Below, piece by piece: positions 1,811-50,815 of a DNA stretch of 64,000 nucleotides (positions within the stretch are counted from its first letter, which is position 1; each line of letters opens with the position of its first letter). The position numbers and the translations under genes are program-made. This DNA is from an uncultured Gemmataceae bacterium (lineage in GTDB: Bacteria > Planctomycetota > Planctomycetia > Gemmatales > Gemmataceae). The notes under the pieces are model-generated. The model was not told the DNA's origin. It did no database searches and saw nothing but the letters and a program-made list of their open reading frames with translations. The DNA lies in the NCBI GenBank assembly GCA_963750165.1, contig CAVVPN010000001.1, positions 288,001-352,000 of the forward strand, written 5' to 3'.

Positions 1811-2043
1811 ACTTAGAGCATGGCTTGACAGTACAATAGAAAAGACTACGAGGACATCCCTCAAGTTATTGTCCAGGTCGGGCCGAATGCGTTCGCGGTG
1901 TGGAAACGCCTACTGGCGGGAGACCGGGCACGGCGAAAAGAAAAGAATCAATAATTGTTAAGTAATGACAGGAATGTTTAAGATTTAGTTAATAGAGATG
2001 GGGGCACTGAATAGCGCTAAACAAAGGAGGTTATTTAGCGTTA

Positions 2044-2180
2044 GTGGCTGTGCGAGAACGCAAAATCGGTGCGTATAATGGGTTATGAGAGACCAACCCT
2101 ACGACACCGACTTGACCGACGCCCAATACGCCTTGCTGGAGCCGCTGCTGCCGCGGCCCAAAGCCACCGGGCGGCCTCCC
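2044..2180 (+). pseudogene. IS5-family transposase N-terminal remnant
   Basis: MRDQPYDTDLTDAQYALLEPLLPRPKATGRPP resembles the IS5 N-terminus (Y.SDLTD.QW..I.PLLP....GRP). Similarity stops after ~32 codons. Confidence 0.75.
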
Positions 2181-2490
2181 CAACAGGCGACGGCCAGAGG
2201 ATTCCAGTGTTGCTGTACCATTCGTACCCGTCACGCTGACGGGCCGACCGGCCCTTCAAGGGCCGCTACGGCGGTCAAACGCATGAACCTGCGTGCGGAG
2301 AAGTGCGCACTTCCCTGGAGTGTTGCCCGGTGCGTAGGCGGCCCAAACAGCACAGCGCCATGATTAGCCGTAACATCAAACCAGGGCATGACTTACGTCA
2401 ACGATGAAGAAGTGGCCAAAGCAGCGTAAGTCCTGTAACAGCAATCATTTACGGACAACGTGACGCTGGGCTGCTGGCGCACTTCCGCTT

Positions 2491-2522
2491 TAGTCCATTT
2501 TGGACTATTCCAAGGTGGACTT
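2491..2522 (+). promoter_or_regulatory. Tandem palindromic operator upstream of the XRE gene
   Basis: Perfect TAGTCCA-TTT-TGGACTA (2491-2507). A degenerate TATTCCA-AGG-TGGACTT (2506-2522) starts 15 bp later. Confidence 0.6.
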
Positions 2523-2554
2523 TATCATCCGGCATTGCGAAAGGCAATGCTCGG

Positions 2555-2875
2555 ATGGAAAAATCCATTTACACCGACGTGTACGCCATGGTGCTGCGGT
2601 TGCTCAAGGAAGCGCGGGAGAGGGCGGGCATCACCCAGGTCGATCTGGCGAAGCGGCTGGAACTGACCCAGTCATTTGTCAGCAAAATCGAACGCGGAGA
2701 CCGGCGGCTCGATATTGTGCAGTTGCGGACGCTCTGCCAGGTGTATGGCATGACGCTCGTGGATTTCGCCAAGCGGCTTGAGGATGAGATGAAGGAAAAG
2801 CAGCAGGACGTGCCAACACCGGCAGAATCCCGACCAGAGACGCCTCAGCCTGGCTTCGGATCGGCAGAATCCTGA
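2555..2875 (+). CDS. XRE-family helix-turn-helix regulator (controller-protein-like)
   Basis: LKEARERAGITQVDLAKRLELTQSFVSKIERGDRRLDI is an HTH_3 pattern. Confidence 0.9.
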   Translation: MEKSIYTDVYAMVLRLLKEARERAGITQVDLAKRLELTQSFVSKIERGDRRLDIVQLRTLCQVYGMTLVDFAKRLEDEMKEKQQDVPTPAESRPETPQPGFGSAES

Positions 2876-2951
2876 TTGGTCTGTCCAGGATCTGACCGAG
2901 GCTGAACTGTCTGAAGCCGACCTCAGGGGTGCTGACCTTGGCGCTGCTGTT

Positions 2952-4481
2952 TTGCGCGGAACTACCTTGACAAGCGTAAATCTGCGCGATGCCGATCTGA
3001 ATTGGTTGATCAAAAGGCTGTTGGTGATGAGGAACGCCGTGGACGCTGAACGAAAACGATATACACCCGATGAATTGAAGGAATTCCTGCGGTTGCATGG
3101 GATGTGGTTGCGGGGAGAAGAAGGGGGGAAGTGCGCCGATCTGAGTAATGCCTGTCTGCCTGGCGTTGATTTGCATGGTGCTGATCTGACCGAGGCTGAA
3201 TTGTCTGGCGCCGATCTCTCTTTCGCTAGGCTGTGCGATACTATTATGTGCCGGGCAAATTTGATCGGTGCCAACCTGGAGTGTGCTAATTTATCTAATG
3301 CCAACCTATCTACAACTAATCTTACCGCCGCCAACCTGAGCTTAACCAATCTGTCCGATGCCAAGTTGCCAGGCGCCATCCTGCGCTCAACTATCCTAAA
3401 CGAAGCTCACTTAGAAAGAGCCAACCTGGCTGCTGCTAATCTGCGCTCATCTAGTCTGACAGATGTTTTGCTAAGAGATGCTAACCTGACCGATGCCGAT
3501 CTGCGCAACACAGACCTGCGTGGCGCCGACTTTTCCGACGCCACCCTAACCTGTGCAGATCTGGAAGGTGCTAAATTGGCCGGTGCCTACCTGCGCTCAG
3601 CCAAACTGTATGGTACCAAACTTTATGGTGCTAAACTTACTGGTTTCGATTTGAGCGAATCCAACCTGTGCTTAGCCGTCCTTGTTGAGGCCGACTTAAG
3701 TGGTGCTGATCTGCGCGATGCCGATCTACGTGATGCTAGGTTAATGAATGCCCGACTCTCAAATACCAACTTGACCGATGCAGACCTACGTGGCGCCAAC
3801 CTGTTTTCGGCCGACCTCTCAAATGCCAACTTGACTAATAGTGATTTACGTGGCGCCAACCTGTTTTCGGCCGACCTCTCAAATGCCAACTTGACTAATA
3901 GTGATTTACGTGGTGCCAACCTATGGTGTGCAGATCTGTCAAATGCCAAACTGGCCAGAACTGACCTGCGTGGCGCTATATTTCCGCCGGAATTCCAACT
4001 ACCACACCATGATGACCAAAGCGGAAACGCCCAATCCGATGTGGTAAGTCAGACATCGCAGAATCCTCGACCATCCGCCTCACAATCTGATATTGTCCCC
4101 GATTCCCTAAAAGGCCACCGATTCAATCTGCGGCAGCGCCTTCGTCTGCAATTGATGGCCCAAGTCTGTACTTCGCCAAACTATAAAGATCTCACGCAAA
4201 ACCAACTGCTTGCGCAGATCACATCGTTGGCAAGAGAGTTGTTTCGCAAGGGCAAGTTTTCCAGCGCAGAAGAGGCAGAGGCCCTCGACCAACTGTCGCG
4301 GGAACAATACCAAACATTTCAAAATGCCTTAAAGACACTAGAAAAAATATGGAATATTTCAGCTGTTTTCGATAAGAAAGCTGGTAAGCCCAGCAACGCT
4401 ACCTACTTGACGGAGGAAGGTCGCGATTGCTTTACGGCATGGTGGGAGGAGTTCAATTCGTCAAAGGAAAATGGACAATAG
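2952..4481 (+). CDS. Pentapeptide-repeat protein with C-terminal winged-helix-like domain; true start uncertain
   Basis: Long A(D/N)Lxx runs. The frame is open back to 2793 and already encodes pentapeptides (DLTEAELSEADLRGADL) before the TTG at 2952. Confidence 0.88.
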   Translation: MRGTTLTSVNLRDADLNWLIKRLLVMRNAVDAERKRYTPDELKEFLRLHGMWLRGEEGGKCADLSNACLPGVDLHGADLTEAELSGADLSFARLCDTIMCRANLIGANLECANLSNANLSTTNLTAANLSLTNLSDAKLPGAILRSTILNEAHLERANLAAANLRSSSLTDVLLRDANLTDADLRNTDLRGADFSDATLTCADLEGAKLAGAYLRSAKLYGTKLYGAKLTGFDLSESNLCLAVLVEADLSGADLRDADLRDARLMNARLSNTNLTDADLRGANLFSADLSNANLTNSDLRGANLFSADLSNANLTNSDLRGANLWCADLSNAKLARTDLRGAIFPPEFQLPHHDDQSGNAQSDVVSQTSQNPRPSASQSDIVPDSLKGHRFNLRQRLRLQLMAQVCTSPNYKDLTQNQLLAQITSLARELFRKGKFSSAEEAEALDQLSREQYQTFQNALKTLEKIWNISAVFDKKAGKPSNATYLTEEGRDCFTAWWEEFNSSKENGQ

Positions 4482-4500
4482 TTGACACTTCCAAGTAAAA

Positions 4501-4914
4501 ATGACAAGGTGCGGCATACCTGCGATAATAGTTGCACCAACAATGACTGATCTTGAACCTCAAATTGATTTCTCACGCCTTAATTACCCCACCGACGCCC
4601 TGACCATAGGCGCTATCCGAAAGCGATTCCCTCCCTACTTTAAAGGCTTGGAACCCAATTGCTTTAGTGATAGTAACGAAGATATGGCCGCCTTACTCCA
4701 CGGTGAGCGAATCCTGGCCCAGTGGGCATTCGATGAGGCTCTTGGGAAGCCGACTTCGTCAAAATCCCAATGGCATAATCAAAAACTAGCGTTGGAGATT
4801 ACCTATCCCGACATAGGAATTGCGACAGGTCCCCAGCATGCGCAGCAACTTGTCCGCGATCTTATAGAAGCTGCCGCCGCTCAAGCCAGAGAGCATCTTG
4901 GCAAAGGGAGATGA
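4501..4914 (+). CDS. Hypothetical protein
   Basis: 137-aa ORF directly after the pentapeptide gene with the same AT-richer composition. No recognised motif. Confidence 0.5.
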   Translation: MTRCGIPAIIVAPTMTDLEPQIDFSRLNYPTDALTIGAIRKRFPPYFKGLEPNCFSDSNEDMAALLHGERILAQWAFDEALGKPTSSKSQWHNQKLALEITYPDIGIATGPQHAQQLVRDLIEAAAAQAREHLGKGR

Positions 4915-5008
4915 CCTCGCTCACCTTTCGCTGTACATTTGTGATTCCAAGTTCTTGTTTCCGAAATTGGAATTCTCCCCCAAAAACGTTACGGTAGACT
5001 GACATTAG

Positions 5009-5039
5009 AAAAAAAGCCGTCCTGTTGACGCAGGACGGC
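5009..5039 (-). terminator. Rho-independent terminator on the minus strand
   Basis: 9-bp stem GCCGTCCTG/CAGGACGGC with a 6-nt loop, preceded by A7 on the plus strand (U-tract on the minus strand). Confidence 0.6.
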
Positions 5040-5282
5040 CGGTTGCCCTGCCCGGAGGCAAGGCGGTTGACCTGCCGCTAACCTTACGCCCGGCTTACCT
5101 CCACGTCAAGGCAACCTCCCAGAAAACCCGGTGCAACCCGGGGAACGTCCCCCTGCGCCCTTGCCGACCATGCTCCCTTAGGTCGGCTGCGTCGAAGATG
5201 CGCTTTCGCCCGTAATCAGTTAGTTCAACAACCAGGACCGTTAACATCCTGTTTTTCCACGGCTTCACCGGAGAATTTCCTT

Positions 5283-6098
5283 ATGTCGCAAGCAAACCTG
5301 CCCGACGAACTTCGCACGGTCCCGCTCCACCGCTTCCTGCCACCGGTCAACGACCGCGAAGACCGGGACGAGCCGTTGATGCAGCGGCTGACCGAATCGA
5401 TCGCCAAGGACGGCTTCCTGCAGCCCATCCGCTGCGTGGAGGAGACGGTCGAAGGCCAGGTAGCGTATCGCGTCGTGACCGGCTGGACCCGGGTGCTCTG
5501 CGGCCGGCGGGCCGGCAAAACGCAGGCCCCGGCCATTGTCATCCGGCGGGCGCTTTCGGAGACGGACGATCTGCTGCAGAAACTGTCGGAGAACGACCTC
5601 CGCGGGGCGACCAGCGTGCGCGACCGCATCCGCTGGTATTACCGCCTGCTGGAGCTGAACCCCGAATGGAACCAGCTTGACCTGGCCAAGGCCGTGCATT
5701 CAAGCCCGGCCGAGGTGAGCAAGACGCTCGCGATTTCCAAGCGCCTGCCGCAGGAACTGCTGGAGAAAATCGGCAATGAGCCCGGCGAGTTGAGCCCGCG
5801 GGCCGCCTACGGCCTGAGCAAGCTGGAGGAGCCGGCCAAGATCCTGGAGTTGGCCGACCGTGTGATGAAAGGACTCATCAAGGCCGAGGCGGTCGAGGTG
5901 GAAGTCGCCAAGCTTTGCCGCAAGGGGAAACACAAGGAGAAAGCGGTCAAAGTTTCGATGCACGGGGTCACCTTCATCATCGGCGTGCATGATCTGCAAA
6001 AGGTGTTCGGGGTGTTCGCGCTGGTGGACGGGGCGCTGAAAAAGCTTGAGAAGCATGGCCTACCGCTTGCCGCGCTGCCTTCACTGCTTCGAGGCTAA
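5283..6098 (+). CDS. ParB/Spo0J-like protein (ParB N-terminal domain + HTH)
   Basis: LTESIAKDGFLQPI...YRVVTGWTRV...SENDLR, followed by HTH NQLDLAKAVHSSPAEVSKTL. Confidence 0.85.
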   Translation: MSQANLPDELRTVPLHRFLPPVNDREDRDEPLMQRLTESIAKDGFLQPIRCVEETVEGQVAYRVVTGWTRVLCGRRAGKTQAPAIVIRRALSETDDLLQKLSENDLRGATSVRDRIRWYYRLLELNPEWNQLDLAKAVHSSPAEVSKTLAISKRLPQELLEKIGNEPGELSPRAAYGLSKLEEPAKILELADRVMKGLIKAEAVEVEVAKLCRKGKHKEKAVKVSMHGVTFIIGVHDLQKVFGVFALVDGALKKLEKHGLPLAALPSLLRG

Positions 6099-6428: not shown

Positions 6429-8258
6429 ATGTACTTACTGATAAGGCTGATGCTGATTGCCGCCTTGGGCCTGACGGCTTACAGCGTCATCCTGTTCTGC
6501 CTCATGGGCGGCGTTTGGTGCTGGGTGGCGCTCGGGGTGCTGCTGCTGCTCGTGGCGCTGAAATCGAAAGGCAAAGTGCTTTGGGCCTATGGGACGGCGG
6601 CCTGTGCCACGGAGGGAGACCTGCGCTGGGCCGGGATGCTTGCGGCAAAGCGGGGGCTGATTCTGGGGCGGCTGGTCGGCGGCCGCGCCTTGACCTTTTT
6701 CGAGCGCGTCAGGGTGTTGCTGAGCAGAAGGATTCCGGCCAGGGACGCCTGCGAGCAGTTCCTGGGCCCGGCAAAGCGGAAGGATGGCGGGCCCCTGGTA
6801 CGACTGCCGAATGCTGTACACACCGCCGTATTTGCCCCTACGGGGGTAGGAAAAGGTGTTTCCTTCGTGGTCCCGTTCCTCCTTACCTGCGAGGAATCCT
6901 GCGTCGTGGTGGACTTCAAGGGCGAACTGGCAAGTCTCACGGCCGGCGCCAGGCGGCGCATGGGTCATGACATCGTGATCCTCGATCCGTTCGGAAGTTG
7001 TGCGAAGACAACAATGCCCTTCAAACCGTCAACCTTCAACCCCCTGGATTTTATTGACAAGGACTCTCCGGCCGCCATCGACGACTGCAACGCCCTGGCG
7101 CAGTCCCTGGTTGTTCGGACCGGCGAGGAGAAGGAGCCGCACTGGCTCGACGCGGCCGAGTCGTGGATCGCGGGCATGACGGCGACGGCCGTGCAGTACG
7201 GGCGGCCAGACAAGGGTACGCGCTCGTTGCAGACCGTCCGGGACATGCTGGCCGACCCGCAAAAGCTGGAGACGGCGGTCAAGCTGATGTGCGAGTCGGA
7301 CGCGTGGGGCGGAATGCTTGCCCGTATGGGCAGGCAGCTCACGCATTTCGTGGACAAGGAGAAATCCTCGACGCTCACTTCCACGGGGCGTTTCCTCCGC
7401 TTCCTCGATACTCCGGCCGTGGCGGCCATCACCAAAGCGAGCAGCTTCGACCCGGCAACGCTTCGGGTGGGCAAAATGACGGTTTTTCTTGTCCTTCCTC
7501 CCTCCTACATGCATTCGCATGCCGCACTGCTCAGGATGTGGATCGTGTCCCTGCTGCGGGCTGTCGTCCAGGGAGGGCTGCACAGCAACCGCTGCGTTCA
7601 CTGCGTCCTGGATGAGGCCAGTTCGCTGGGACACCTTCAGGTTGTCGAGGACATGCTGGCCATCGGCCGCGGCTACTCCGTGCGGCTCCAGTTTTACTTT
7701 CAGTCGGTCGGCCAACTTAAAAAATGCTTCCCGCAGGGCCAGGAACAAACCCTGATGTCCAACGTGACGCAGGTGTTTTTCGGGGTGAACGACAAGGATA
7801 CAGCGGAGTATGTCAGCGCCCGTCTCGGGGAGCAAACCATCGTCGTGGAGAGCGGCGGCAGCAGCCGGGGGCAATCCGGGCAACTCTTCGGCAAGGGCGG
7901 CGTTACCCAATCGACGAACAGCAACCGAAACTGGCAGCAGGTGGGTCGCAAGCTCCTGAAGCCCGAAGAAGTGCTCGCGCTCTCGCCGCGGGTCGCCATC
8001 ACCTTTGCCCCTGGAATACGGCCGATCTGCACGCAACTGCTGCGCTATTACGAAGAGAAGAAATCGCTGTGGAAACAGCGCGGGCGGCTGCACGGCATCG
8101 TGGCGTGCTGCCAATCGTTTTTCAAGGCAACCGTGCTTCTGTTGGCGGCGGGGCTTGTTGCCTTCGCGGCAACGAAGCTGAAAGGAGGGTTCGATGTCAG
8201 AACTGGCGGACAAGCTGTTCAACACCGTCAAGGAGAGCCTCAGCAACGCGCCCGCTGA
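6429..8258 (+). CDS. VirD4/TraG-family type IV coupling protein
   Basis: Two N-terminal TM helices, Walker A APTGVGKG, VVVDFKGE, FNPLD, Walker B VLDEASSLG, TAEYVSARLG, RKLLKPEEV. ATG at 6429 has an RBS. Confidence 0.92.
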   Translation: MYLLIRLMLIAALGLTAYSVILFCLMGGVWCWVALGVLLLLVALKSKGKVLWAYGTAACATEGDLRWAGMLAAKRGLILGRLVGGRALTFFERVRVLLSRRIPARDACEQFLGPAKRKDGGPLVRLPNAVHTAVFAPTGVGKGVSFVVPFLLTCEESCVVVDFKGELASLTAGARRRMGHDIVILDPFGSCAKTTMPFKPSTFNPLDFIDKDSPAAIDDCNALAQSLVVRTGEEKEPHWLDAAESWIAGMTATAVQYGRPDKGTRSLQTVRDMLADPQKLETAVKLMCESDAWGGMLARMGRQLTHFVDKEKSSTLTSTGRFLRFLDTPAVAAITKASSFDPATLRVGKMTVFLVLPPSYMHSHAALLRMWIVSLLRAVVQGGLHSNRCVHCVLDEASSLGHLQVVEDMLAIGRGYSVRLQFYFQSVGQLKKCFPQGQEQTLMSNVTQVFFGVNDKDTAEYVSARLGEQTIVVESGGSSRGQSGQLFGKGGVTQSTNSNRNWQQVGRKLLKPEEVLALSPRVAITFAPGIRPICTQLLRYYEEKKSLWKQRGRLHGIVACCQSFFKATVLLLAAGLVAFAATKLKGGFDVRTGGQAVQHRQGEPQQRAR

Positions 8259-21987: not shown

Positions 21988-22071
21988 ATATGCTGACCGG
22001 CGCCTGGGATATGCGAGCCGGCACCCGCAATATGCTGACCGGCGCCCGGGATATGCGAGCCGGCGCCGGTC
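21988..22071 (+). repeat. Four 21-bp ATATGC-anchored tandem units (ABAB)
   Basis: ATATGCTGACCGGCGCC.GGG alternates with ATATGCGAGCCGGC... Confidence 0.85.
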
Positions 22072-22072
22072 A

Positions 22073-22435
22073 GATAATCAAAGACGGCAATGTGCTGCTG
22101 GCGATGAAGCGCCAGGATTTTGAGCGGCGGGCGCAGGACGCTCCCAACCTCGACTGGCTCACCAGCAAGACCGTCGGCGTGCTGTCGGTCGGGCTCCCGC
22201 GGCCCTCCTTTGCGGCACCCGAGACGATGCAGGAAGTGCCCGTGGCGACCTATCACGTCATGATCCAGGACGGCAAGCTGAGCGTGGAAGTGGAGAACGA
22301 CCCCGGGCGGCGCCACCGGCGGGCTTGCTGCCGACCTGGGTGGTGGGGCTGGTGGCGTCCGTGGCCATCGCGTGGCTGGGCATCTGGTTCGTCCGCCGCC
22401 GCTCCGCCACGCCTCGGGTGAAGGAACTGTCGTGA
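22073..22435 (+). pseudogene. 5'-truncated paralogue of the two downstream C-terminally anchored proteins, frameshift near 22305
   Basis: LLAMKRQDFERRA..LDWLT..EVPVATYH, then in another frame GLLPTWVVGLVASVAIAWLGIWFVRRR. Confidence 0.75.
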
Positions 22436-22545: not shown

Positions 22546-23169
22546 ATGAGCCGAAGGCTGGCGTTCGCGGTGGCTGTCAGTCTGGTGGTGGTTGCCGCCG
22601 TGTCAGGGAATGCAGGGCCGGCGCGCTTGCCGAAAGACCACAAGCGCATCGATCCGCCCGTGCGCTTCGAGGGCATCGAAAAACACTCGGAATACGTCTT
22701 TCACGTGCAGTGCGGTGGAGCTTACCTGAGCTATCGAACGTTCCAGGTCAAGGACGCGAAATCGTTCCCACTCGATTTCCCAAACTTCAAAGACCGCGCC
22801 CCAACCATCAGTTACATGGTGTTGCTGGCGATGAAGCGCCAGGACTTTGAAAAGCGGGCGAAGGCCGATCCCAAGCTCGAATGGCTCACCGAGAAGACCG
22901 AAGGCGTACTGTCGGTCAAACTCGCTCCGCCTTCCCTGGTGGCTCCGGTCACGGTGAAGGAAATCCCCGTGACGACCTACCGCGTCACCATCAAGGACGG
23001 CAAGCTGACCGCTGAAAAAGTGGCCGGCGCCAAGAGCAGCGCGGCGCCGCCGGCGAGCCTGCTACCGAACTGGGCGTTCGGACTGGTGGGTTCCGCGTCG
23101 GTTGCGTGGCTGGGCCTCTGGTTCGTCCGCCGCCGGCCCGCCACGCCTCCGCCGCAGGAGCCGGCCTGA
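22546..23169 (+). CDS. Exported protein with C-terminal TM anchor + RRR
   Basis: Signal peptide. Ends LLPNWAFGLVGSASVAWLGLWFVRRRP. Confidence 0.85.
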   Translation: MSRRLAFAVAVSLVVVAAVSGNAGPARLPKDHKRIDPPVRFEGIEKHSEYVFHVQCGGAYLSYRTFQVKDAKSFPLDFPNFKDRAPTISYMVLLAMKRQDFEKRAKADPKLEWLTEKTEGVLSVKLAPPSLVAPVTVKEIPVTTYRVTIKDGKLTAEKVAGAKSSAAPPASLLPNWAFGLVGSASVAWLGLWFVRRRPATPPPQEPA

Positions 23170-23176
23170 CACCGCG

Positions 23177-23216
23177 TTGTCCGCGGTTCGCCGCCCTGGT
23201 ATGCTTCAGGGCGGCG
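23177..23216 (+). promoter_or_regulatory. Sigma70-like promoter with palindrome around the -10 box (copy 1)
   Basis: TTGTCC-17 bp-TATGCT with extended TG. Arms CGCCGCCCTG/CAGGGCGGCG. Confidence 0.65.
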
Positions 23217-23248
23217 GCACCTTTCGCGCTTCCCCGGAGGAAGATGCC

Positions 23249-23518
23249 ATGTCGAACAATCCCACGATCCTCGAACGCAACCGGGAACTGGCGAAGCGCA
23301 TCAACGAGGAGGCGCGGCGCGACCCGCAATCGCCGTATGCCAACAAGTTCGTCGGGATCGTCGATGGCCAGGTCGTGGTGGTCGCGGACAACCCGGACGA
23401 ATTGGGGCGGCGGTTGCGGCAAATCGAACCCGACCCATGCAAATGTTATTGGGTGGAAGCGAGTCGGGATTATTCGGAAGTGCATCACATCCCTGGCCCG
23501 ATCTGGTGCTGTGCATGA
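23249..23518 (+). CDS. Small DUF5678-like protein (copy 1)
   Basis: PYANKFVGIVDGQVVVVADNPDEL. RBS GGAGG. Paralogue at 25705. Confidence 0.75.
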   Translation: MSNNPTILERNRELAKRINEEARRDPQSPYANKFVGIVDGQVVVVADNPDELGRRLRQIEPDPCKCYWVEASRDYSEVHHIPGPIWCCA

Positions 23519-23568
23519 AAAGTTCAATCGCATTTGCCGTGCTGCCGACCAGTTCAGGCAGACGGAGC

Positions 23569-24174
23569 ATGATCCGATCATTACTGCTCGCGGTGGCCGC
23601 CCAGCTGTTGACGGCTGCCGCCGTGTCGGCGGACGGGGTGCCGCACGTGCCGCGGGGCATGAAGTACATCCAGCCGCACGTGCGCTTCGCGGACCTCGAC
23701 CAGTACCCCGACTATGTCTTTTTCGTGTGGAATCGCTTCCTCCATCATCCCGCGGAGGACGCGAAGGACGGTCCGCCATACCAGATCAAGGACGCCAGCG
23801 CGCTCCGCCTCTCCTGGGGAAACCGCGACCGCCACATCCTGCTGGCGATGAAGCGCCTGGACTTCGAGCGGCGGGCGCAGTACGCCCCCAAGCTCGACTG
23901 GCTCACCGACAAGACCGAGGGGGTGCAGTCGGTCGGGCTGCGAGCGCCCTCCCACCTGGCACCCGTGACGATGGCGGAAGTGCCCGTGGCGACCTATCAC
24001 ATCACCTTCCGGGACGGCCGGCTGGCCGTTGACCTGGAGGACGATGCGCGTGTGACTGGGGGCTTGCTGCCGCCCTGGGCATTCGGGTTGCTGGCGTCCG
24101 TGGCCATCGCCTGGCTGGGCCTCTGGTTCGTCCGCCGCCGTTCCGCCGCGCCGCAGCCGAGGGAACTGACATGA
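23569..24174 (+). CDS. Exported protein with C-terminal TM anchor + RRR
   Basis: Signal peptide MIRSLLLAVAAQLLTAAAVSA. Ends LLPPWAFGLLASVAIAWLGLWFVRRR. Confidence 0.85.
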   Translation: MIRSLLLAVAAQLLTAAAVSADGVPHVPRGMKYIQPHVRFADLDQYPDYVFFVWNRFLHHPAEDAKDGPPYQIKDASALRLSWGNRDRHILLAMKRLDFERRAQYAPKLDWLTDKTEGVQSVGLRAPSHLAPVTMAEVPVATYHITFRDGRLAVDLEDDARVTGGLLPPWAFGLLASVAIAWLGLWFVRRRSAAPQPRELT

Positions 24175-25704: not shown

Positions 25705-25962
25705 ATGTCGAGCGATCCCACGGTACTTGAGCGCAACCGGGAACTGGCGATGCGGATCAACGAGGAGGCGCGGCGCGACCCGCAATCGCCGTATGCGAAC
25801 AAGTGGGTCGGCATCGCCAACGGCCAAGTCGTGGTGATCGCGGATGACCCGGATGAGGTGTCGCGGCGCCTTCGACAAATCGAGCCGGACCCGAGCAAGT
25901 GCTTCGGCGTCGAAGCGAGCCGGGATTATGACGAGGTGATCTTTATCCTGGGAGCGCTCTGA
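25705..25962 (+). CDS. Small DUF5678-like protein (copy 2)
   Basis: Close paralogue of 23249-23518. Confidence 0.78.
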   Translation: MSSDPTVLERNRELAMRINEEARRDPQSPYANKWVGIANGQVVVIADDPDEVSRRLRQIEPDPSKCFGVEASRDYDEVIFILGAL

Positions 25963-25995: not shown

Positions 25996-28236
25996 ATGGC
26001 AAAAAAGGCCCCTAAACCCGAGGCCGCCTACGCCGAGGCCTTGAAGCGGATTGAAGCCTGGCGTCAGCAGGGTAAGCAAGGCAACGTGCTCGATTTGCGC
26101 GGACTGGGCCTTGTCGCGCTGCCGCCGGAGGTCGGCCGCCTCACCGCCCTGACGAGGCTGAACCTCAGCAGCAACCAGTTGACTGCGCTGCCGCCGGAGG
26201 TCGGCCGCCTCACCGCCCTGACGAGGCTGAACCTCGGCGGCAACCGGCTGGCCGCGCTGCCGCCGGAGGTCGGCCGCCTCACCGCCCTGACGACGCTGTT
26301 CCTCAGCCGCAACCGGCTGGCCGCGCTGCCGCCGGAGGTCGTCCGCCTCACCGCCCTGACGGAGCTGGACCTCAGCCGCAACCGATTGGCCGCGCTGCCG
26401 CCGGAGGTCGTCCGCCTCACCGCCCTGACGGAGCTAACCCTCAGCAGCAACCAGTTGGCCGCGCTGCCGCCGGAGGTCGGCCGCCTCACCGCCCTGACGA
26501 GGCTGAACCTCGGCGGCAACCGGCTGGCCGCGCTGCCGCCGGAGGTCGGCCGCCTCACCGCCCTGACGGAGCTGAACCTCAGCCGCAACCGGCTGGCCGC
26601 GCTGCCGCCGGAGGTCGGCCGCCTCACCGCCCTGACGACGCTGTACCTTCACGACAATCCAGACCTGGGTTTGCCGGCGGAAGTGTTGGGGCCGACATGG
26701 CTAGATGTCATCTCAAAAGAAGCCAGGCCCAAGCCGCCGAGCGAGATCCTTGCCTATTACTTTCGCATCGTCGGTACGGCCGGCGAAGCTCTGGGCGAGT
26801 GCAAGCTGATCGTGGTCGGGCGTGGCGGCGTGGGAAAAACCAGTCTGGTCAAGCGCCTGAGCGGTAAACTCTACGACCCCAACGAAGCGGAGACCCACGG
26901 CATCACGATCCGGCAACTGGACTTCGACGCGCAACAGGGTCAGGTGAAGGCCCGCGTGTGGGACTTCGGCGGCCAGGTGGTGCTGCACTCGATGCACGAA
27001 TTCTTCCTCACCGCCCGCAGCCTGTACCTGCTGGTGCTGGGCGAGCGCGACGACATGCTGGAGCGCGACGCCGCCTACTGGCTGCAGCTGATCCGCAGTT
27101 ACGCCGGCGACGCGCCGGTGGTGGTGGCGCTGAACAAGAGCGCCAGCCGCCAGCGGCAGTTCGACCGCGCGACGCTGGAGAAGAATTACGGTCCCATCCT
27201 CGGCTGGGTGGCAACCGAATGCTCCGAGCCCAACGAGACGGTAGGCGGCATCGCGGAATTACGCCGGAAGTTGACCGAGGCGCTCGACAGTCCCCACATG
27301 GACAGCGTGCGTCGGAAATTCCCGAAGAAATGGCACGCCATCAAGGCCGAACTGGAGGGGATGCAGGAAAGCTACCTGGACTACGAAACCTACGAGAAGC
27401 GCTGCCGTGCCCTGGGTGAACCGGACCCGAAAGAGCAGGAGGCCCTGGCGGCGGATCTGCACGACCTGGGGGTAGCTCTGAATTACCGCCGCGACCCGCG
27501 CCTGCGCGACACCACGGTGCTGCGCCCGGACTGGCTGGCTAACGGCATCTACGCGGTGCTGCGGGCCAACGACCTGGACAAGGAACTGCCGCCGGAGTTG
27601 AACGTACCGTTGGCCCCCAAGGGGATCATTACGGCGGCGTTGCTGGAGCGCATCCATCAGAAAGCCGAACACTGGAAGATGCTGCGGGCGGCGGATTACC
27701 CCGCCGAGAAGCGCGACTTTTTGCTGCGACTGATGGACCTGTTTCACCTGAGCTATCCACTGGACGACGAGGGACTCGAGCAGCTGGTGCCAACGCTGCT
27801 GTCGCCGGAACCTCCGCCGGGGACGGACGAACCGGAAGACTCCCAGCGGGTGCGCCTGCGCTACGTGTTCTCGGTGGTGCCCGAACCGTTACTGCCGTGG
27901 TTCATCGCCCGCAGCTTCGCACTGATCCCGGACCAGCGGCACTGGCGTCGCGGGGCGATGCTGGCCTTTGCGGAGGCCCGCGCCAAGGTGTGGGCCACGC
28001 AGGATGACCGTTTCGTCTACGCCACCGTCGCCGGTCCCGAGCAGCAGCGTAAGCGCTTGCTGGCGATCATCCGCGGCACGCTGCACAAGATTTTTAGCGG
28101 ATACCGATCGCTGAAACCGGAGGAGCAATGGGAGTACAAGGGCAAGTTTGTGCCGCGCGAGACGCTGGAAGAATTCGGCGTGCTGCCGCGCCCGGAACCG
28201 GAGGACCCGCGTCTGGGTGAGGAGGTGGAGTCATGA
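25996..28236 (+). CDS. Roco protein: LRR-Roc GTPase-COR
   Basis: Eight 23-aa LRRs, P-loop GRGGVGKTS, ETHGI, WDFGGQ, HEFFLT. COR motifs LHDLGV and LRPDWLANGIY. Confidence 0.93.
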   Translation: MAKKAPKPEAAYAEALKRIEAWRQQGKQGNVLDLRGLGLVALPPEVGRLTALTRLNLSSNQLTALPPEVGRLTALTRLNLGGNRLAALPPEVGRLTALTTLFLSRNRLAALPPEVVRLTALTELDLSRNRLAALPPEVVRLTALTELTLSSNQLAALPPEVGRLTALTRLNLGGNRLAALPPEVGRLTALTELNLSRNRLAALPPEVGRLTALTTLYLHDNPDLGLPAEVLGPTWLDVISKEARPKPPSEILAYYFRIVGTAGEALGECKLIVVGRGGVGKTSLVKRLSGKLYDPNEAETHGITIRQLDFDAQQGQVKARVWDFGGQVVLHSMHEFFLTARSLYLLVLGERDDMLERDAAYWLQLIRSYAGDAPVVVALNKSASRQRQFDRATLEKNYGPILGWVATECSEPNETVGGIAELRRKLTEALDSPHMDSVRRKFPKKWHAIKAELEGMQESYLDYETYEKRCRALGEPDPKEQEALAADLHDLGVALNYRRDPRLRDTTVLRPDWLANGIYAVLRANDLDKELPPELNVPLAPKGIITAALLERIHQKAEHWKMLRAADYPAEKRDFLLRLMDLFHLSYPLDDEGLEQLVPTLLSPEPPPGTDEPEDSQRVRLRYVFSVVPEPLLPWFIARSFALIPDQRHWRRGAMLAFAEARAKVWATQDDRFVYATVAGPEQQRKRLLAIIRGTLHKIFSGYRSLKPEEQWEYKGKFVPRETLEEFGVLPRPEPEDPRLGEEVES
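26110..26661 (+). repeat. Eight near-identical 69-bp tandem repeats encoding LRRs
   Basis: Framework GCGCTGCCGCCGGAGGTCG(G/T)CCGCCTCACCGCCCTGACG recurs every 69 bp. Confidence 0.95.
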
Positions 28237-28784
28237 ACAAGATTCCGCGCACATCCACGCCTCGTAGCCCGGGCCGCGCCGGCCACTCGGTGAAACTGTT
28301 TATCAGTTATTCACACAGGAACAAGGTGTGGATGAAACATCTCACCCCACTGCTGGACGGCTTTCGGTATGACGACCGCCTGGCGAACCGACCTCGTCTT
28401 CAGTACCTCCACGCCTGGCACGACAAGGACCTCCCGGTGGGTAACCCCTGGGACGGCGAGATCAAGCAGGAACTGGAGGAGATGGACATCTTCGTTCCCC
28501 TGGTGAGCATTGATTTCTTCTCGTCGGGGTACATCCAGAATGTCGAACTGCCGCGCGCCAGGGAGCGTCATGCCGTGGGAGAAATTCTGGTGGTGCCGAT
28601 CCTCCTTTACTACGTGAACCTGCGGGAGAAGTGCGCATTTCTGCATGACTTTCCAGCGTATCCCGCAAATGATCGGCTGTGGAGCAAGTACCGTGATCGG
28701 CGTGAAGCGCTCGGGCTTATCGACGACGGCTTGTGGACGGCCATTGATGCGGTCCTGCAACGCAAAGCGACCGGGAAGATGTGA
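28233..28784 (+). CDS. Stand-alone TIR-domain protein
   Basis: KLFISYSH, AWHDKDLPVGNPWDGEI, FFSSGYIQNVEL (Glu at the catalytic position). ATGA overlap with the Roco gene and a GAGGAGG RBS. Confidence 0.92.
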   Translation: MNKIPRTSTPRSPGRAGHSVKLFISYSHRNKVWMKHLTPLLDGFRYDDRLANRPRLQYLHAWHDKDLPVGNPWDGEIKQELEEMDIFVPLVSIDFFSSGYIQNVELPRARERHAVGEILVVPILLYYVNLREKCAFLHDFPAYPANDRLWSKYRDRREALGLIDDGLWTAIDAVLQRKATGKM

Positions 28785-29144
28785 GCCTTTGTTGTGGTCC
28801 GATGACCAGGCCACAACGCGGCGGTGGCGGCGGGCGTCAATCGCTGCCAGTCGCTGCAAGGGGATCACCTCCCGGCCCGCGTGCGGATGAGCCCCTTGAT
28901 CCCCTTGCTCGGACTGGCAACCCCGGGCGCACGCCGGCACAGCGCGGCAGGTCCGTCCGGCAACGGTTGGCCCGTGAACCCCTTGAGCTTCTTGAACCCC
29001 TTGCCCGGACTGGCAACCGCCGGCACCCCGCAGGCCCAGAAACCGTGAACAGCCGTCCCGGTGCCGCGACACCGCCTATCCAACCCCGTTCAATCCTGGT
29101 ACACTGGCGAGGTCAACGGACCCCAGGACTTCAGGAGAGGTGCG

Positions 29145-48665: not shown

Positions 48666-50815
48666 ATGAGGCTCAAGGTTCCCCTGTTGCTTGGCGCGGC
48701 GCTGGCCGGGCTGAGTGCGGCCGCGCTGCCCGCCCAGGCGGCGCACTGTGGCGCCTGCACTTATCCGCTCAGCTGCCAGAGCCCCGATCAATTGTGCCCG
48801 CCCCCGGTGCGCTACCGGGTCTGCTATCAAACCGTCACCGAGGACCACACCTGCGTCAAGTACCGCCCCGTCGTCTGCACGGTGATGAAGGAGTGCCCCT
48901 ACACCGTTTGCAAGCCCGTCTTTGAAACGTGCTACCGCACGCAGCGTTACACCGTTTGCAGACAGGTCTGGGAAAATTACGACGTGGTTCGCAAGTACAC
49001 GGTCTGCAAGCCAGTGTACGACCAGTGCGTCCGCGTGCAGAAATACACCGTCTGCAAGCCCGTGTACCAGGACTACCAGGTGCCGGTGACCTGGACCACC
49101 TATCGACCGGTGTATCAACAACACGTCTGCACCCAGAAGTACACCGTTTGCAAGACGCTCTGCCAGGACTATCAGGTGCCCGTCTACTGGACGACCTACC
49201 GGCCGGTCTACCAGCAGCACGTTTGCACCCAGAAATACACCGTTTGCAAAACACTCTTCCAGGACTATCAGGTGCCGGTGACCTGGACGACGTGCCATCC
49301 GGTGTATCAGCAGCACGTCTGCGCCAGAAATACACCGTCTGCAAAACACTCTTCCAGGACTACCAGGTGCCCGTTTACTGGAACACCTGTCACCCCGTTT
49401 ACCAGAAACATGTTCGCGTCCAGAAGTACACCGTCTGCAAGACGCTCTTCCAGGACTATCAGGTGCCCGTCTACTGGACGACCTACCGGCCGGTCTATGA
49501 GCAGCACGTTCGCACTTGCAAATACACCGTCTGCAAAACGCTCTGCCAGGACTATCAGGTGCCGGTGACCTGGACGACGTACCGACCAGTGTACGAGCAG
49601 CACTGCCAGCAGGTGCCGCAGACGTGTTACCGTACCGTTGTGGAACCGCGGCAGCGGGTGTGCGTCAGCTACACCTATGAGCCGGTCTTCACCACGCGCT
49701 GCTACAAGGTATGCACCGGCTGCTGGCAGACGGAGCGAACGTACGTCCCCGGCCCGGTCGTGACCCGCTGCTGCCAGCTGCCGGGCACGTGTAGCTTTGA
49801 CTTCTGCACCTGCACTTGCAAATACTGCCCCGGCCCCACGGTAACCTATCAGGTGCAGTGCCCCGGTCAGTGGGTCTGCCGCCAAATCTGGGTGCCGCGC
49901 GAGGAGGTCCGCACCCAGCAGTGCTGCCATTACGTCCGCAAGGAGCACTGCCGGACGGAAACCTATCATGTGTGCCGCACGGTGCCCTACACCGTCATGC
50001 GTCAAGTCCCGTACACCACCTGCAAGATGGTGCCGCAGCAGCACTGCAAAATGGTCACCTGCCACCGTTACTTCACCGTCCCCGAGGAGAAGGTGCAGTA
50101 TATCCCGTACACCACCTGCAAGATGGTGCCGCAGCAGCACTGCAAGATGGTGACGTGCCGCCGCTACTATAACGTCCCCGAGGAGAAGGTGCAGTGCATC
50201 CCGTACACCACCTGCCACATGGTGACGCAGAAGCATTGCAAGATGGTGACCTGCCGCCGCTACTACAACGTCCCCGAGGAAAAGGTGCGGTACATCCCCT
50301 ATACGACCTGCCGCATCGTGACGCAGCAGCATTGCAAGATGATCCCGTGCCGCCGCTATTACACGGTGCCGGAGGAAAAGGTGCGGTGCATCCCATACAC
50401 GACGTGCAAGATGGTGCCCGAGCAGCACTGCAAGATGGTCACCTGCCGTCGCTACTATAACGTCCCGGAGGAGCGGGTACGCTACATCCCGTACACGACG
50501 TGCAAGATGGTGGCGGAGCAGCACTGCAAGATGGTGCCGCAGCGGCGCTGCTACCTGGTGCCGGAGGAGCGCTGCGTCCAGATTCCGTACACAGTCTGTC
50601 GCATGGTGCCGGAGGAGCGCTGCGAGGTCATCAAGTGCAGCCGCTGCAAACTGGTGCCGGAGGAGCACTGCTGCCAGGTGCCGTACACGGTCTGCCGCAT
50701 GGTCACGGAACAGTGCGTTCGGATGGTGCCGCACACCACCTGCACGCTGCAGCCGTACTGCGCAACCTTCAAGGTCACGCGCTGCGTGCCGATCTGTGTG
50801 CCGGTCTGCGATTAG
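48666..50815 (+). CDS. Exported Cys-rich YTV-repeat protein; apparent frameshift near 49325
   Basis: Signal peptide and 16/32-aa repeats YTVCK.. and YTTCKMVP... Comparison with sister repeats shows one C missing at TGCGCCAGAAA. Confidence 0.88.

What the first reader, a model, noticed from the sequence alone, without database searches (positions are those of the whole stretch)
26110..26661. LRR array with constant DNA framework and variation focused on the binding face
Seen: across eight 69-bp repeats the framework is almost invariant, even at synonymous sites. The exposed positions of xLxLxxN vary: R-N-SS, R-N-GG, T-F-SR, E-D-SR, E-T-SS, R-N-GG, E-N-SR, T-Y-HD. Repeats 2 and 6 match and others look like mosaics (repeat 7 combines E, N and SR). 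Known: these positions form the concave ligand surface. Inference: repeat shuffling or gene conversion generates receptor diversity, as in fungal NLR repeats.
Basis: partly seen in the sequence, partly recalled or inferred. Interest (0 to 1): 0.72.

Follow-up and report, generated by a model that had tools for sequence, protein, structure and literature searches.

The report
Shuffled LRR sensor with partner TIR
The repeats encode the leucine-rich arm of a bacterial LRRK2-like GTPase and are nearly identical except at the predicted binding face; the protein likely works as a fast-diversifying immune sensor predicted to carry a separately encoded TIR enzyme, a two-gene variant of a known receptor type.

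Summary
Eight 69-bp units (26119-26670) encode the LRR arm of a 746-aa LRR-Roc-COR (Roco/AP-GTPase) protein, followed by an overlapping TIR gene. In units 1-7, 12 of 13 variable bases lie in codons 13-22. Face codons carry 10 amino-acid changes against 4 silent changes in the whole unit (dN/dS about 5, p 0.0025). Seventeen homogenised homologous arrays give 1.7 (1.4-2.1). Units look mosaic (7 of 21 site pairs incompatible), and near-identical relatives differ in unit number and content. No donor or template was found in the genome, and no reverse transcriptase near 106 loci, so ordinary within-gene recombination plus selection is the likely cause. Reads for this gene were unavailable. The family is predicted in print as counter-invader; the repeat regime is known from fungal NLRs and brown-algal ROCOs; this scan noted similar arrays in three other genomes. 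What I did not find described: a multi-phylum clade where the TIR is a separate gene (50 of 50 intact effector-less loci), predicted to dock on COR-B (0.83 vs best control 0.00), with the G4 aspartate lost (0 of 50). Defence function is untested.

The parts
25996..28236 (+). 746-aa LRR-Roc-COR (Roco / AP-GTPase) gene with no C-terminal effector domain
   Evidence: ORF; Pfam LRR_4/LRR_8, Roc, COR-A, COR-B; matches C. tepidum Roco 6HLU over residues 49-710, E 4e-79
26119..26670 (+). Eight 69-bp / 23-aa LRR units; units 1-7 about 91% identical, unit 8 is the capping unit; variable codons 6, 13, 15, 17, 18, 20, 22 in the LPPEV register
26185..26292 (+). 108-nt stretch (unit 2 plus flanks) identical to 26461-26568
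26461..26568 (+). Second copy of the 108-nt identical stretch (unit 6 plus flanks)
26803..27141 (+). Roc GTPase domain (residues 270-382) with G1 GRGGVGKT and G3 DFGG
   Evidence: Pfam PF08477 E 9e-24; alignment to 4WNR and 3DPU
27133..27144 (+). G4 motif reading NKSA where the solved Rocos read NKID: the aspartate is missing
27322..27801 (+). COR-A domain (residues 443-602)
   Evidence: Pfam PF16095 E 1e-27
27844..28128 (+). COR-B domain (residues 617-711)
   Evidence: Pfam PF25497 E 5e-15
28042..28089 (+). COR-B helix (residues 683-698, IIRGT) that forms the core of the predicted TIR docking site; its R is kept in 45 and its G in 44 of 46 aligned homologues
   Evidence: predicted interface; numbering and conservation
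28220..28236 (+). Shine-Dalgarno-like AGGAGG and ATGA stop/start overlap between the two genes (translational coupling inferred)
   Evidence: sequence; ATGA in 33 and GTGA in 6 of 50 related loci
28233..28784 (+). Separate 183-aa TIR gene; glutamate 105 (28545-28547) invariant in 41 of 41 aligned partners and outside the predicted interface
   Evidence: Pfam TIR_2; PADLOC ThsB-like E 5e-17; alignment

Best explanation
The array is the LRR arm of an LRR-Roc-COR GTPase whose units are likely kept alike by recombination or slippage between neighbouring units, while selection likely favours new residues on the predicted binding face, and the protein is predicted to hold the TIR made by the next gene and would switch it on when the arm meets an invader protein. 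Steps: (1) shown: near-identical units, variation concentrated in codons 13-22, Roc-COR body, coupled TIR gene. (2) Supported by statistics: excess amino-acid change on the face, units more alike within than between genes, mosaic units, different arrays on near-identical gene bodies in relatives. (3) Inferred: the invariant 36-39-nt stretch in each unit gives the homology for unequal exchange, so new face residues arise by point mutation and are then copied, recombined, gained and lost; no dedicated enzyme is needed. (4) Predicted only: the TIR docks on the COR-B helix 683-698. (5) Inferred from the family and untested: ligand binding shifts the Roc-COR nucleotide and dimer cycle, which clusters or frees the TIR; the TIR then cleaves NAD+ or makes an ADPR-type signal and aborts infection, most likely by phage.
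For: Window array: 10 non-synonymous changes over 9.7 face sites against 4 synonymous over 21.1 sites, dN/dS 5.5, binomial p 0.0025; framework 0.41. Of 39 homologous arrays with 4 or more internal units, the 17 with mean identity of 0.75 or more pool to 1.69 on the face (bootstrap 1.40-2.06; above 1 in 14 of 17) and 0.34 on the framework. Window units are 0.91 alike, but at most 0.80 like any unit of the closest relatives with arrays. Incompatible sites include a synonymous one (TTG/CTG), and the SSNQL block sits behind R-N in unit 1 and E-T in unit 5. L041 has 1 unit and L052/L057 have 5 between the same two flanking units, though Roc-COR differs by 1 base in 705. Homologues at 76-79% identity carry about 2 to 12 units with their own frameworks. 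A second LRR-Roc-COR gene in the genome shows the same pattern on an unrelated framework. A TIR gene follows in 50 of 50 loci that have an intact effector-less Roc-COR and room downstream. Complex score 0.83, best of 3 controls 0.00; the mark was reached by 116 of 157 solved complexes and 2 of 215 mismatched pairs; runs agree in at least 63% of contacts; partner pLDDT at least 79. Family predicted as counter-invader in PMC8195603.
Against: No reads or strains for this gene, so turnover of this allele is unobserved. The finding was picked because it looked striking, so 5.5 is likely inflated; the unselected pooled value is 1.7, 3 of 17 arrays are at or below 1, related arrays are not independent, and 18 of the 22 more diverged arrays lie between 0.43 and 1.22. 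The count ignores codon bias and mutation bias, which lower silent change in a 66% GC genome. Homogenisation is not universal: 22 of 39 arrays are under 0.75, and only 157 of 274 units have their nearest unit in the same gene. Recombination clustering test p 0.06 and 0.93; recurrent mutation could explain 3 extra steps. Short-read assemblies of such repeats are unreliable (PMC12222747 abstract), which bears on L041 versus L052. By my reading only about 9 of 90 neighbouring ORFs from 24 loci have conflict-type Pfam families; most are housekeeping, and the Roco protein has no PADLOC match. The complex used my own alignments, and halves of a split gene tend to pass. Loss of the G4 aspartate could mean altered or weak GTP use.
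Confidence: 0.58

Rival explanations
1. Recent neutral expansion with relaxed constraint: the units were duplicated recently, the framework is held by folding, and the face simply tolerates change; no selection for diversity.
For: Explains the high identity and the gene-specific frameworks. Face dN/dS is near or below 1 in many arrays. Codon bias may depress silent change (usage table). AGG at codon 13 (4.6% of Arg codons) looks like an unadjusted point mutant.
Against: Neutrality predicts a ratio near 1; observed 5.5 here (p 0.0025), 3.1 and 8.4 in the two unit classes of the second locus (p 0.068, 0.040), and 1.69 pooled with an interval above 1.
Confidence: 0.2
2. The module is a diversifying sensor, but for something other than infection, such as self/non-self recognition between cells, predators or a stress signal, with the TIR acting as a signalling adaptor.
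For: Neighbourhoods are mostly housekeeping genes, not defence islands. No second Thoeris-type effector is conserved nearby. No experimental anti-phage Roco system appeared.
Against: Patchy occurrence (5 of 60 relatives, best 39% identity; 77% homologues in other lineages), broken copies (14 of 94 loci) and a TIR with an invariant glutamate resembling ThsB and Cat1 fit a conflict system.
Confidence: 0.14
3. Targeted mutagenesis or donor cassettes: a diversity-generating retroelement or silent copies elsewhere write the variable codons. Most variable codons can be read as changes at the adenines of AAC or AAG.
For: Codons 15, 17 and 18 are all NNC and codon 13 all NNG; the second locus is similar. 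The genome is 93% complete and has several reverse transcriptases.
Against: No similar sequence outside the array by blastn (best 76% over 67 nt). No match to the framework at up to 4 mismatches, and only unrelated-looking matches at 8. No tblastn hit of 4 genome RTs in 106 Roco loci, 786 kb. No recombinase, integrase or RT family among 90 neighbours. A fixed third base is also what selection for amino-acid change from one ancestor gives; other arrays fix T there. The invariant AAC asparagine codon is untouched in units 1-7.
Confidence: 0.04
4. The mosaic order or the unit 2 = unit 6 identity is an assembly error.
For: Such repeats mis-assemble from short reads (PMC12222747 abstract). No reads could be laid.
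Against: The genome is in 12 contigs of up to 3.6 Mb without N, the frame is intact, six distinct units exist among seven, and the pattern recurs in independent homologues.
Confidence: 0.04

Closest known systems
Prokaryotic AP-GTPase (Roc)-COR counter-invader proteins (Kaur et al. 2021, PMC8195603; section 15 read whole, about 60 rows of supplement file 6 seen)
   Same: N-terminal LRRs described as rapidly evolving, Roc, COR, TIR among the effectors, several copies per genome, Planctomycetes represented.
   Different: The text describes effectors fused at the C-terminus; here the TIR is a separate coupled gene across a whole clade. The supplement lists one LRR+AP-GTPase+COR followed by a separate GT4 gene, and I saw too few rows to exclude split TIR entries. 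The section read gives no repeat-level DNA or dN/dS analysis.
Fungal HNWD NLRs het-d/het-e with high internal conservation (PMC12222747, abstract seen)
   Same: Repeats kept alike by concerted evolution with a few hypervariable sites under diversifying selection.
   Different: WD40 propellers on a NACHT ATPase with known ligand (HET-C) and repeat exchange between genes; here LRRs on a Roc-COR, no ligand known, and no paralogue shares the framework.
Brown-algal LRR-ROCO proteins (Zambounis et al., PMC3341825, passages seen; PMC11378527, search listing only)
   Same: LRR-Roc-COR, positive selection on concave-face residues, variable repeat number and order.
   Different: There each repeat is an exon and is shuffled as such; here there are no introns and the units are contiguous.
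Bacterial NLR-like proteins with internally conserved WD/TPR repeats (bioRxiv 10.1101/2020.01.06.895854, one passage seen)
   Same: Proposes the same regime of rapid diversification for bacterial sensor repeats.
   Different: STAND ATPases with WD/TPR repeats; offered as a possibility in the passage seen.
Chlorobium tepidum Roco (PDB 6HLU, 3DPU, 8R4B) and Methanosarcina Roco (4WNR)
   Same: LRR-Roc-COR fold and G1/G3 motifs.
   Different: Both aligned structures read NKID at G4; this clade lacks the aspartate. No solved chain combining COR with this TIR type appeared.
Thoeris ThsB and Cat1 TIR domains
   Same: Best PADLOC match ThsB (E 5e-17); best solved match Cat1 (E 6e-08); invariant glutamate.
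   Different: No ThsA-type or CRISPR partner is conserved nearby; the partner is a Roco protein.

Membership tests
Roco (Roc-COR) proteins | Roc followed directly by COR | tested here: met
   Pfam Roc 270-382, COR-A 443-602, COR-B 617-711 (COR-A 97 bits and COR-B 56 bits, above cut-offs)
Roco (Roc-COR) proteins | G1 (GxxxxGK[ST]) and G3 (DxxG) motifs | tested here: met
   GRGGVGKT and DFGG, invariant or nearly so in 46 homologues
Roco (Roc-COR) proteins | G4 NKxD guanine-specificity motif (motif definition recalled) | tested here: not met
   NKSA here; NKxD in 0 of 50 split-type loci against 6 of 14 other loci and 1 of 116 parsed among 120 proteins. This marks a variant; domain membership rests on the Roc-COR tandem.
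Roco (Roc-COR) proteins | GTP binding, hydrolysis and nucleotide-dependent dimer cycle | not testable with these tools
   biochemistry needed
AP-GTPase-COR counter-invader systems (Kaur 2021) | Rapidly evolving N-terminal LRRs | tested here: met
AP-GTPase-COR counter-invader systems (Kaur 2021) | Effector fused at the C-terminus | tested here: not met
   Effector is a separate overlapping gene here and in 50 related loci; fused TIR in 3 loci, one (L026) nested among split ones in a quick tree
AP-GTPase-COR counter-invader systems (Kaur 2021) | Protects against an invader | not testable with these tools
   a prediction in that paper too
High-internal-conservation repeat receptors (HNWD-like regime) | Repeats more alike within than between genes | tested here: met
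   0.91 within, at most 0.80 to relatives; 6 of 6 nearest units in the same gene
High-internal-conservation repeat receptors (HNWD-like regime) | Few hypervariable sites with dN/dS above 1 | tested here: met
   simple counting test, no codon model
High-internal-conservation repeat receptors (HNWD-like regime) | Repeat reshuffling among alleles | tested here: inconclusive
   Seen in relatives L041/L043 versus L052/L057/L059; no alleles or reads for this gene; clustering test p 0.06
High-internal-conservation repeat receptors (HNWD-like regime) | Repeat exchange between paralogues | tested here: not met
   The only other Roco found in the genome has an unrelated framework
Diversity-generating retroelement target | Template repeat differing at adenines | tested here: not met
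   (genome 93% complete)
Diversity-generating retroelement target | Linked reverse transcriptase | tested here: not met
   none in 106 loci; the genome's RT matches lie on other contigs than the window
Enzymatic TIR domains | Conserved catalytic glutamate (role recalled) | tested here: met
   E105 in 41 of 41
Enzymatic TIR domains | NAD+ cleavage | not testable with these tools
   assay needed

The most novel reading that the evidence does not exclude
A mobile, multi-phylum two-gene bacterial immune receptor: an LRRK2-like GTPase with a non-canonical G4 holds a separately encoded TIR NADase on its COR domain, and its LRR arm recombines fast enough that each population carries a standing repertoire of binding faces. 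This would be a bacterial counterpart of lamprey VLRs and fungal NLR repeats, and would give bacterial Roco proteins their first ligand-to-effector pathway.
Probability: 0.3. Interest if true: 0.78.

Novelty: new variant of a known kind. Interest (0 to 1): 0.5.

Why it matters
Bacterial Roco proteins are the structural models for LRRK2, yet I found no ligand or output for them in the papers searched. A small two-gene module with a likely enzymatic read-out (TIR), a predicted docking site and a sensor whose specificity sits in four or five codons per unit makes that question testable: arrays or face residues can be swapped and NAD+ turnover or phage protection measured. It also extends the concerted-evolution-plus-hypervariable-site regime from fungi and algae to bacterial LRRs with numbers. 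The repeat pattern alone is not a new mechanism.

Tried and rejected
Sequencing runs: none was listed, so no reads were laid; this is no evidence either way. Donor or template search: none found. Retroelement link: none in 106 loci with 4 RT queries; the fifth RT locus gave no query sequence. Conserved neighbours beyond the TIR, or a recombinase: none among 90 ORFs, a subset of 128 candidates, from 24 loci. A true orthologue in 60 relatives: none above 39% identity with this query. A frameshifted single gene: rejected because the split and the stop/start overlap are conserved. Programmed frameshifting to a fused product was not tested beyond reading the junctions. A specially protected framework: rejected as a general rule, since silent diversity in 19 pooled arrays is spread over all 23 codons (0.12-0.58). 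The recombination clustering test was marginal here and negative for the second array. The careful tree did not finish; only the quick tree was read, and L039/L040, L113 and L115 were mis-anchored long branches. The third query was an arbitrary 33-codon stretch and is ignored. Literature searches listed no paper on repeat-level selection in bacterial Roco LRRs or on a two-gene Roco-TIR system; only listings were seen for most, subscription papers are missing, and most of PMC8195603 supplement file 6 and all of file 13 were not seen.

Full report
Observation. The array is real: period 69, 7.7 copies, 91% matches at 26115-26648. It lies in frame in a 746-aa ORF at 25996-28236. In units 1-7 there are 13 variable bases, 12 of them in codons 13-22. 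Units 2 and 6 are identical inside a 108-nt exact repeat. Unit 8 leaves the framework after codon 16 and is the cap. An AlphaFold2 model (pLDDT 90.2, 78 sequences) places the short strand of each unit on x-L-x; by standard LRR geometry (established knowledge) those x positions and the two that follow line the concave face.

What the gene is. Pfam gives LRR, Roc, COR-A and COR-B, and TIR_2 for the next ORF, 28233-28784, which overlaps the stop codon as ATGA behind an AGGAGG. The closest full-length solved match is C. tepidum Roco. The host has 67 DUF1559 matches, which I recall as typical of planctomycetes; this is an inference. Kaur et al. 2021 (PMC8195603, section 15) describe prokaryotic AP-GTPase-COR proteins with rapidly evolving N-terminal LRRs and at least 24 C-terminal effectors, TIR among them, as predicted counter-invader systems. 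So the protein type is known. The genome holds a second one at G000:C3:1610479-1614243 (minus strand) with a long C-terminal extension that reads like a TIR (by eye, not scanned) and 17 units of 22 or 23 residues on an unrelated framework, again near-invariant with variable face positions.

Homogenisation. Of 120 listed homologues I displayed 48; those at 76-79% Roc-COR identity with a complete N-terminus carry about 2 to 12 pattern-matched units, each gene with its own framework. From 101 fetched loci, 94 had a parsable Roc frame and 39 had four or more internal units after removing duplicates and the last unit. Mean unit identity ran from 0.45 to 0.90; 17 of 39 reached 0.75 and 3 reached 0.85. 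The window's 0.91 is at the extreme. Window units are at most 0.80 like units of the nearest relatives, and 6 of 6 have their nearest unit in the same gene; over all 46 genes tested this holds for 157 of 274 units. Homogenisation is therefore common but episodic.

Selection. Counting each codon allele once, the four face codons carry 10 amino-acid-changing substitutions over 9.7 sites against 4 silent ones over 21.1 sites: ratio 5.5, p 0.0025; framework 0.41. The two unit classes of the second locus give 3.1 (p 0.068) and 8.4 (p 0.040). The 17 homogenised homologous arrays, not chosen for face variation, pool to 1.69 (bootstrap 1.40-2.06), above 1 in 14 of 17, framework 0.34. Against this: the window's value is likely inflated by having been picked, relatives are not independent, codon bias is not modelled, and older arrays fall to or below 1, as saturation would also cause. 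Silent diversity in pooled arrays is spread over all codons, so the framework is not specially protected; it is young and purified.

Mosaics and turnover. Seven of 21 informative site pairs are incompatible with one tree, and the best tree needs 20 changes against a minimum of 17; one incompatible site is synonymous. The test for clustering by distance gave p 0.06 here and 0.93 in the second array, so recombination is favoured but not proved. No runs were listed for this gene. Relatives give the allele comparison: L041 and L052 differ by about 1 base in 705 of Roc-COR, yet L041 has one unit and L052/L057 five between the same flanking units; L043 agrees with L041 and L059 with L052 where they overlap, and L059 shares downstream DNA with L041. 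The L052 type is frameshifted. These are metagenome assemblies, and such repeats can mis-assemble from short reads (PMC12222747 abstract). L047, 91% like L041 in Roc-COR, has a wholly different, non-homogenised arm.

No dedicated machinery. The variable codons can be read as adenine changes of AAC or AAG, which raised a retroelement idea. No template or donor exists in the assembly, no RT lies in 106 Roco loci, and no recombinase or RT family appeared among 90 neighbours. Ordinary unequal exchange or slippage plus selection is sufficient.

The two-gene module. Among the 94 loci, 50 have an intact Roc-COR without effector and room downstream; all 50 have a TIR gene next, 39 with an ATGA or GTGA overlap. 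Three have a fused TIR, 2 have the pair behind a longer fusion, 11 have other long C-termini, 14 are broken or partial and 14 run off the contig. The query alignment was built from this clade, so 50 of 50 describes the clade, not all Rocos. A quick tree groups 48 split rows plus fused L026 (support 84) across Planctomycetota, Verrucomicrobiota, Pseudomonadota, Acidobacteriota and Myxococcota; two split loci lacked a parsable start and were left out. Only 5 of 60 relatives of the host have any Roc-COR match, at 39% or less, which suggests horizontal spread. The TIR keeps E105 in 41 of 41 and resembles ThsB and Cat1. The complex model supports binding without showing it: score 0.83, best of 3 controls 0.00; that mark was reached by 116 of 157 solved complexes and 2 of 215 mismatched pairs; runs agree in at least 63% of contacts; partner pLDDT at least 79; my own alignments were used, and split halves tend to pass. 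The interface centres on COR-B helix 683-698, whose R and G are kept in 45 and 44 of 46 homologues, and on TIR residues 32-51 and 151-164, leaving E105 free; a strict [IVLM]RG[TV] motif, however, is present in only 17 of the 50 split loci and 2 of 14 others. The G4 motif lacks its aspartate in 50 of 50 split loci, while 6 of 14 other loci keep it and both aligned structures read NKID.

Mechanism and verdict. Most likely the LRR arm binds an invader protein, the Roc-COR switch changes state, and the docked TIR is clustered or released to consume NAD+; these functional steps are inferred from the families and untested. Neighbourhoods are mostly housekeeping genes and give little support for defence. 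The repeat regime matches fungal HNWD NLRs and brown-algal ROCOs (PMC3341825 passages) and was suggested for bacterial NLR repeats. This scan noted similar arrays in three other genomes; these are unchecked notes and not used as support. Searches listed no description of the split Roco-TIR clade or of the G4 change, but the supplement of PMC8195603 shows one split GT4 case and I saw only about 60 of its rows.

Noticed in passing
G000:C3:1610479-1614243 minus strand (L007): Second LRR-Roc-COR gene with a TIR-like C-terminus (by eye) and 17 units mixing 22-aa (xSTG) and 23-aa (xCRG) types on an unrelated, near-invariant framework.
   Followed up: partly
window 27133-27144 and 50 related loci: G4 motif without the aspartate throughout the split Roco-TIR clade; nucleotide specificity may differ.
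   Followed up: partly
L039 and L040, ORF ending near 7540: A 1535-aa protein with an N-terminal TIR-like stretch and what looks like a STAND ATPase start, fused ahead of the Roc-COR, still followed by the separate TIR gene (domains by eye).
   Followed up: no
L026: Fused Roc-COR-TIR nested among split loci at about 85% DNA identity, suggesting re-fusion.
   Followed up: partly
L041 versus L047: 91% identical Roc-COR DNA but an entirely different, diverged LRR arm: whole-sensor replacement.
   Followed up: partly
window 25705-25962, 23175-23473 and G000:C10:88409-88537: A small DUF5678 gene sits just upstream of the Roco gene; a second copy lies 2.5 kb upstream and a truncated third on contig C10. 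Related secreted-looking ORFs lie at 21990-22421, 22546-23169 and 23437-24174.
   Followed up: no
window 3752-3976: 60-bp tandem repeat encoding pentapeptide-like repeats in a lower-GC stretch (54-56% GC at 2001-6000).
   Followed up: no
window 49011-50703: 96-bp repeats encoding a Cys/Val/Tyr/Thr-rich protein whose reading frame appears to shift within the array.
   Followed up: no
window 28781-29075: Two similar segments (GANCCCCTTG...CGGACTGGCAACC) between the TIR gene and the elongation-factor-like GTPase ORF at 29061 (seen by eye).
   Followed up: no
L008-L014 (G000 C3 and C11): Reverse transcriptases that look group II intron-like (L008, L011) and retron-like (L009, L010) by eye; L013 lies in an 858-aa frame and was not classified.
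   Followed up: no
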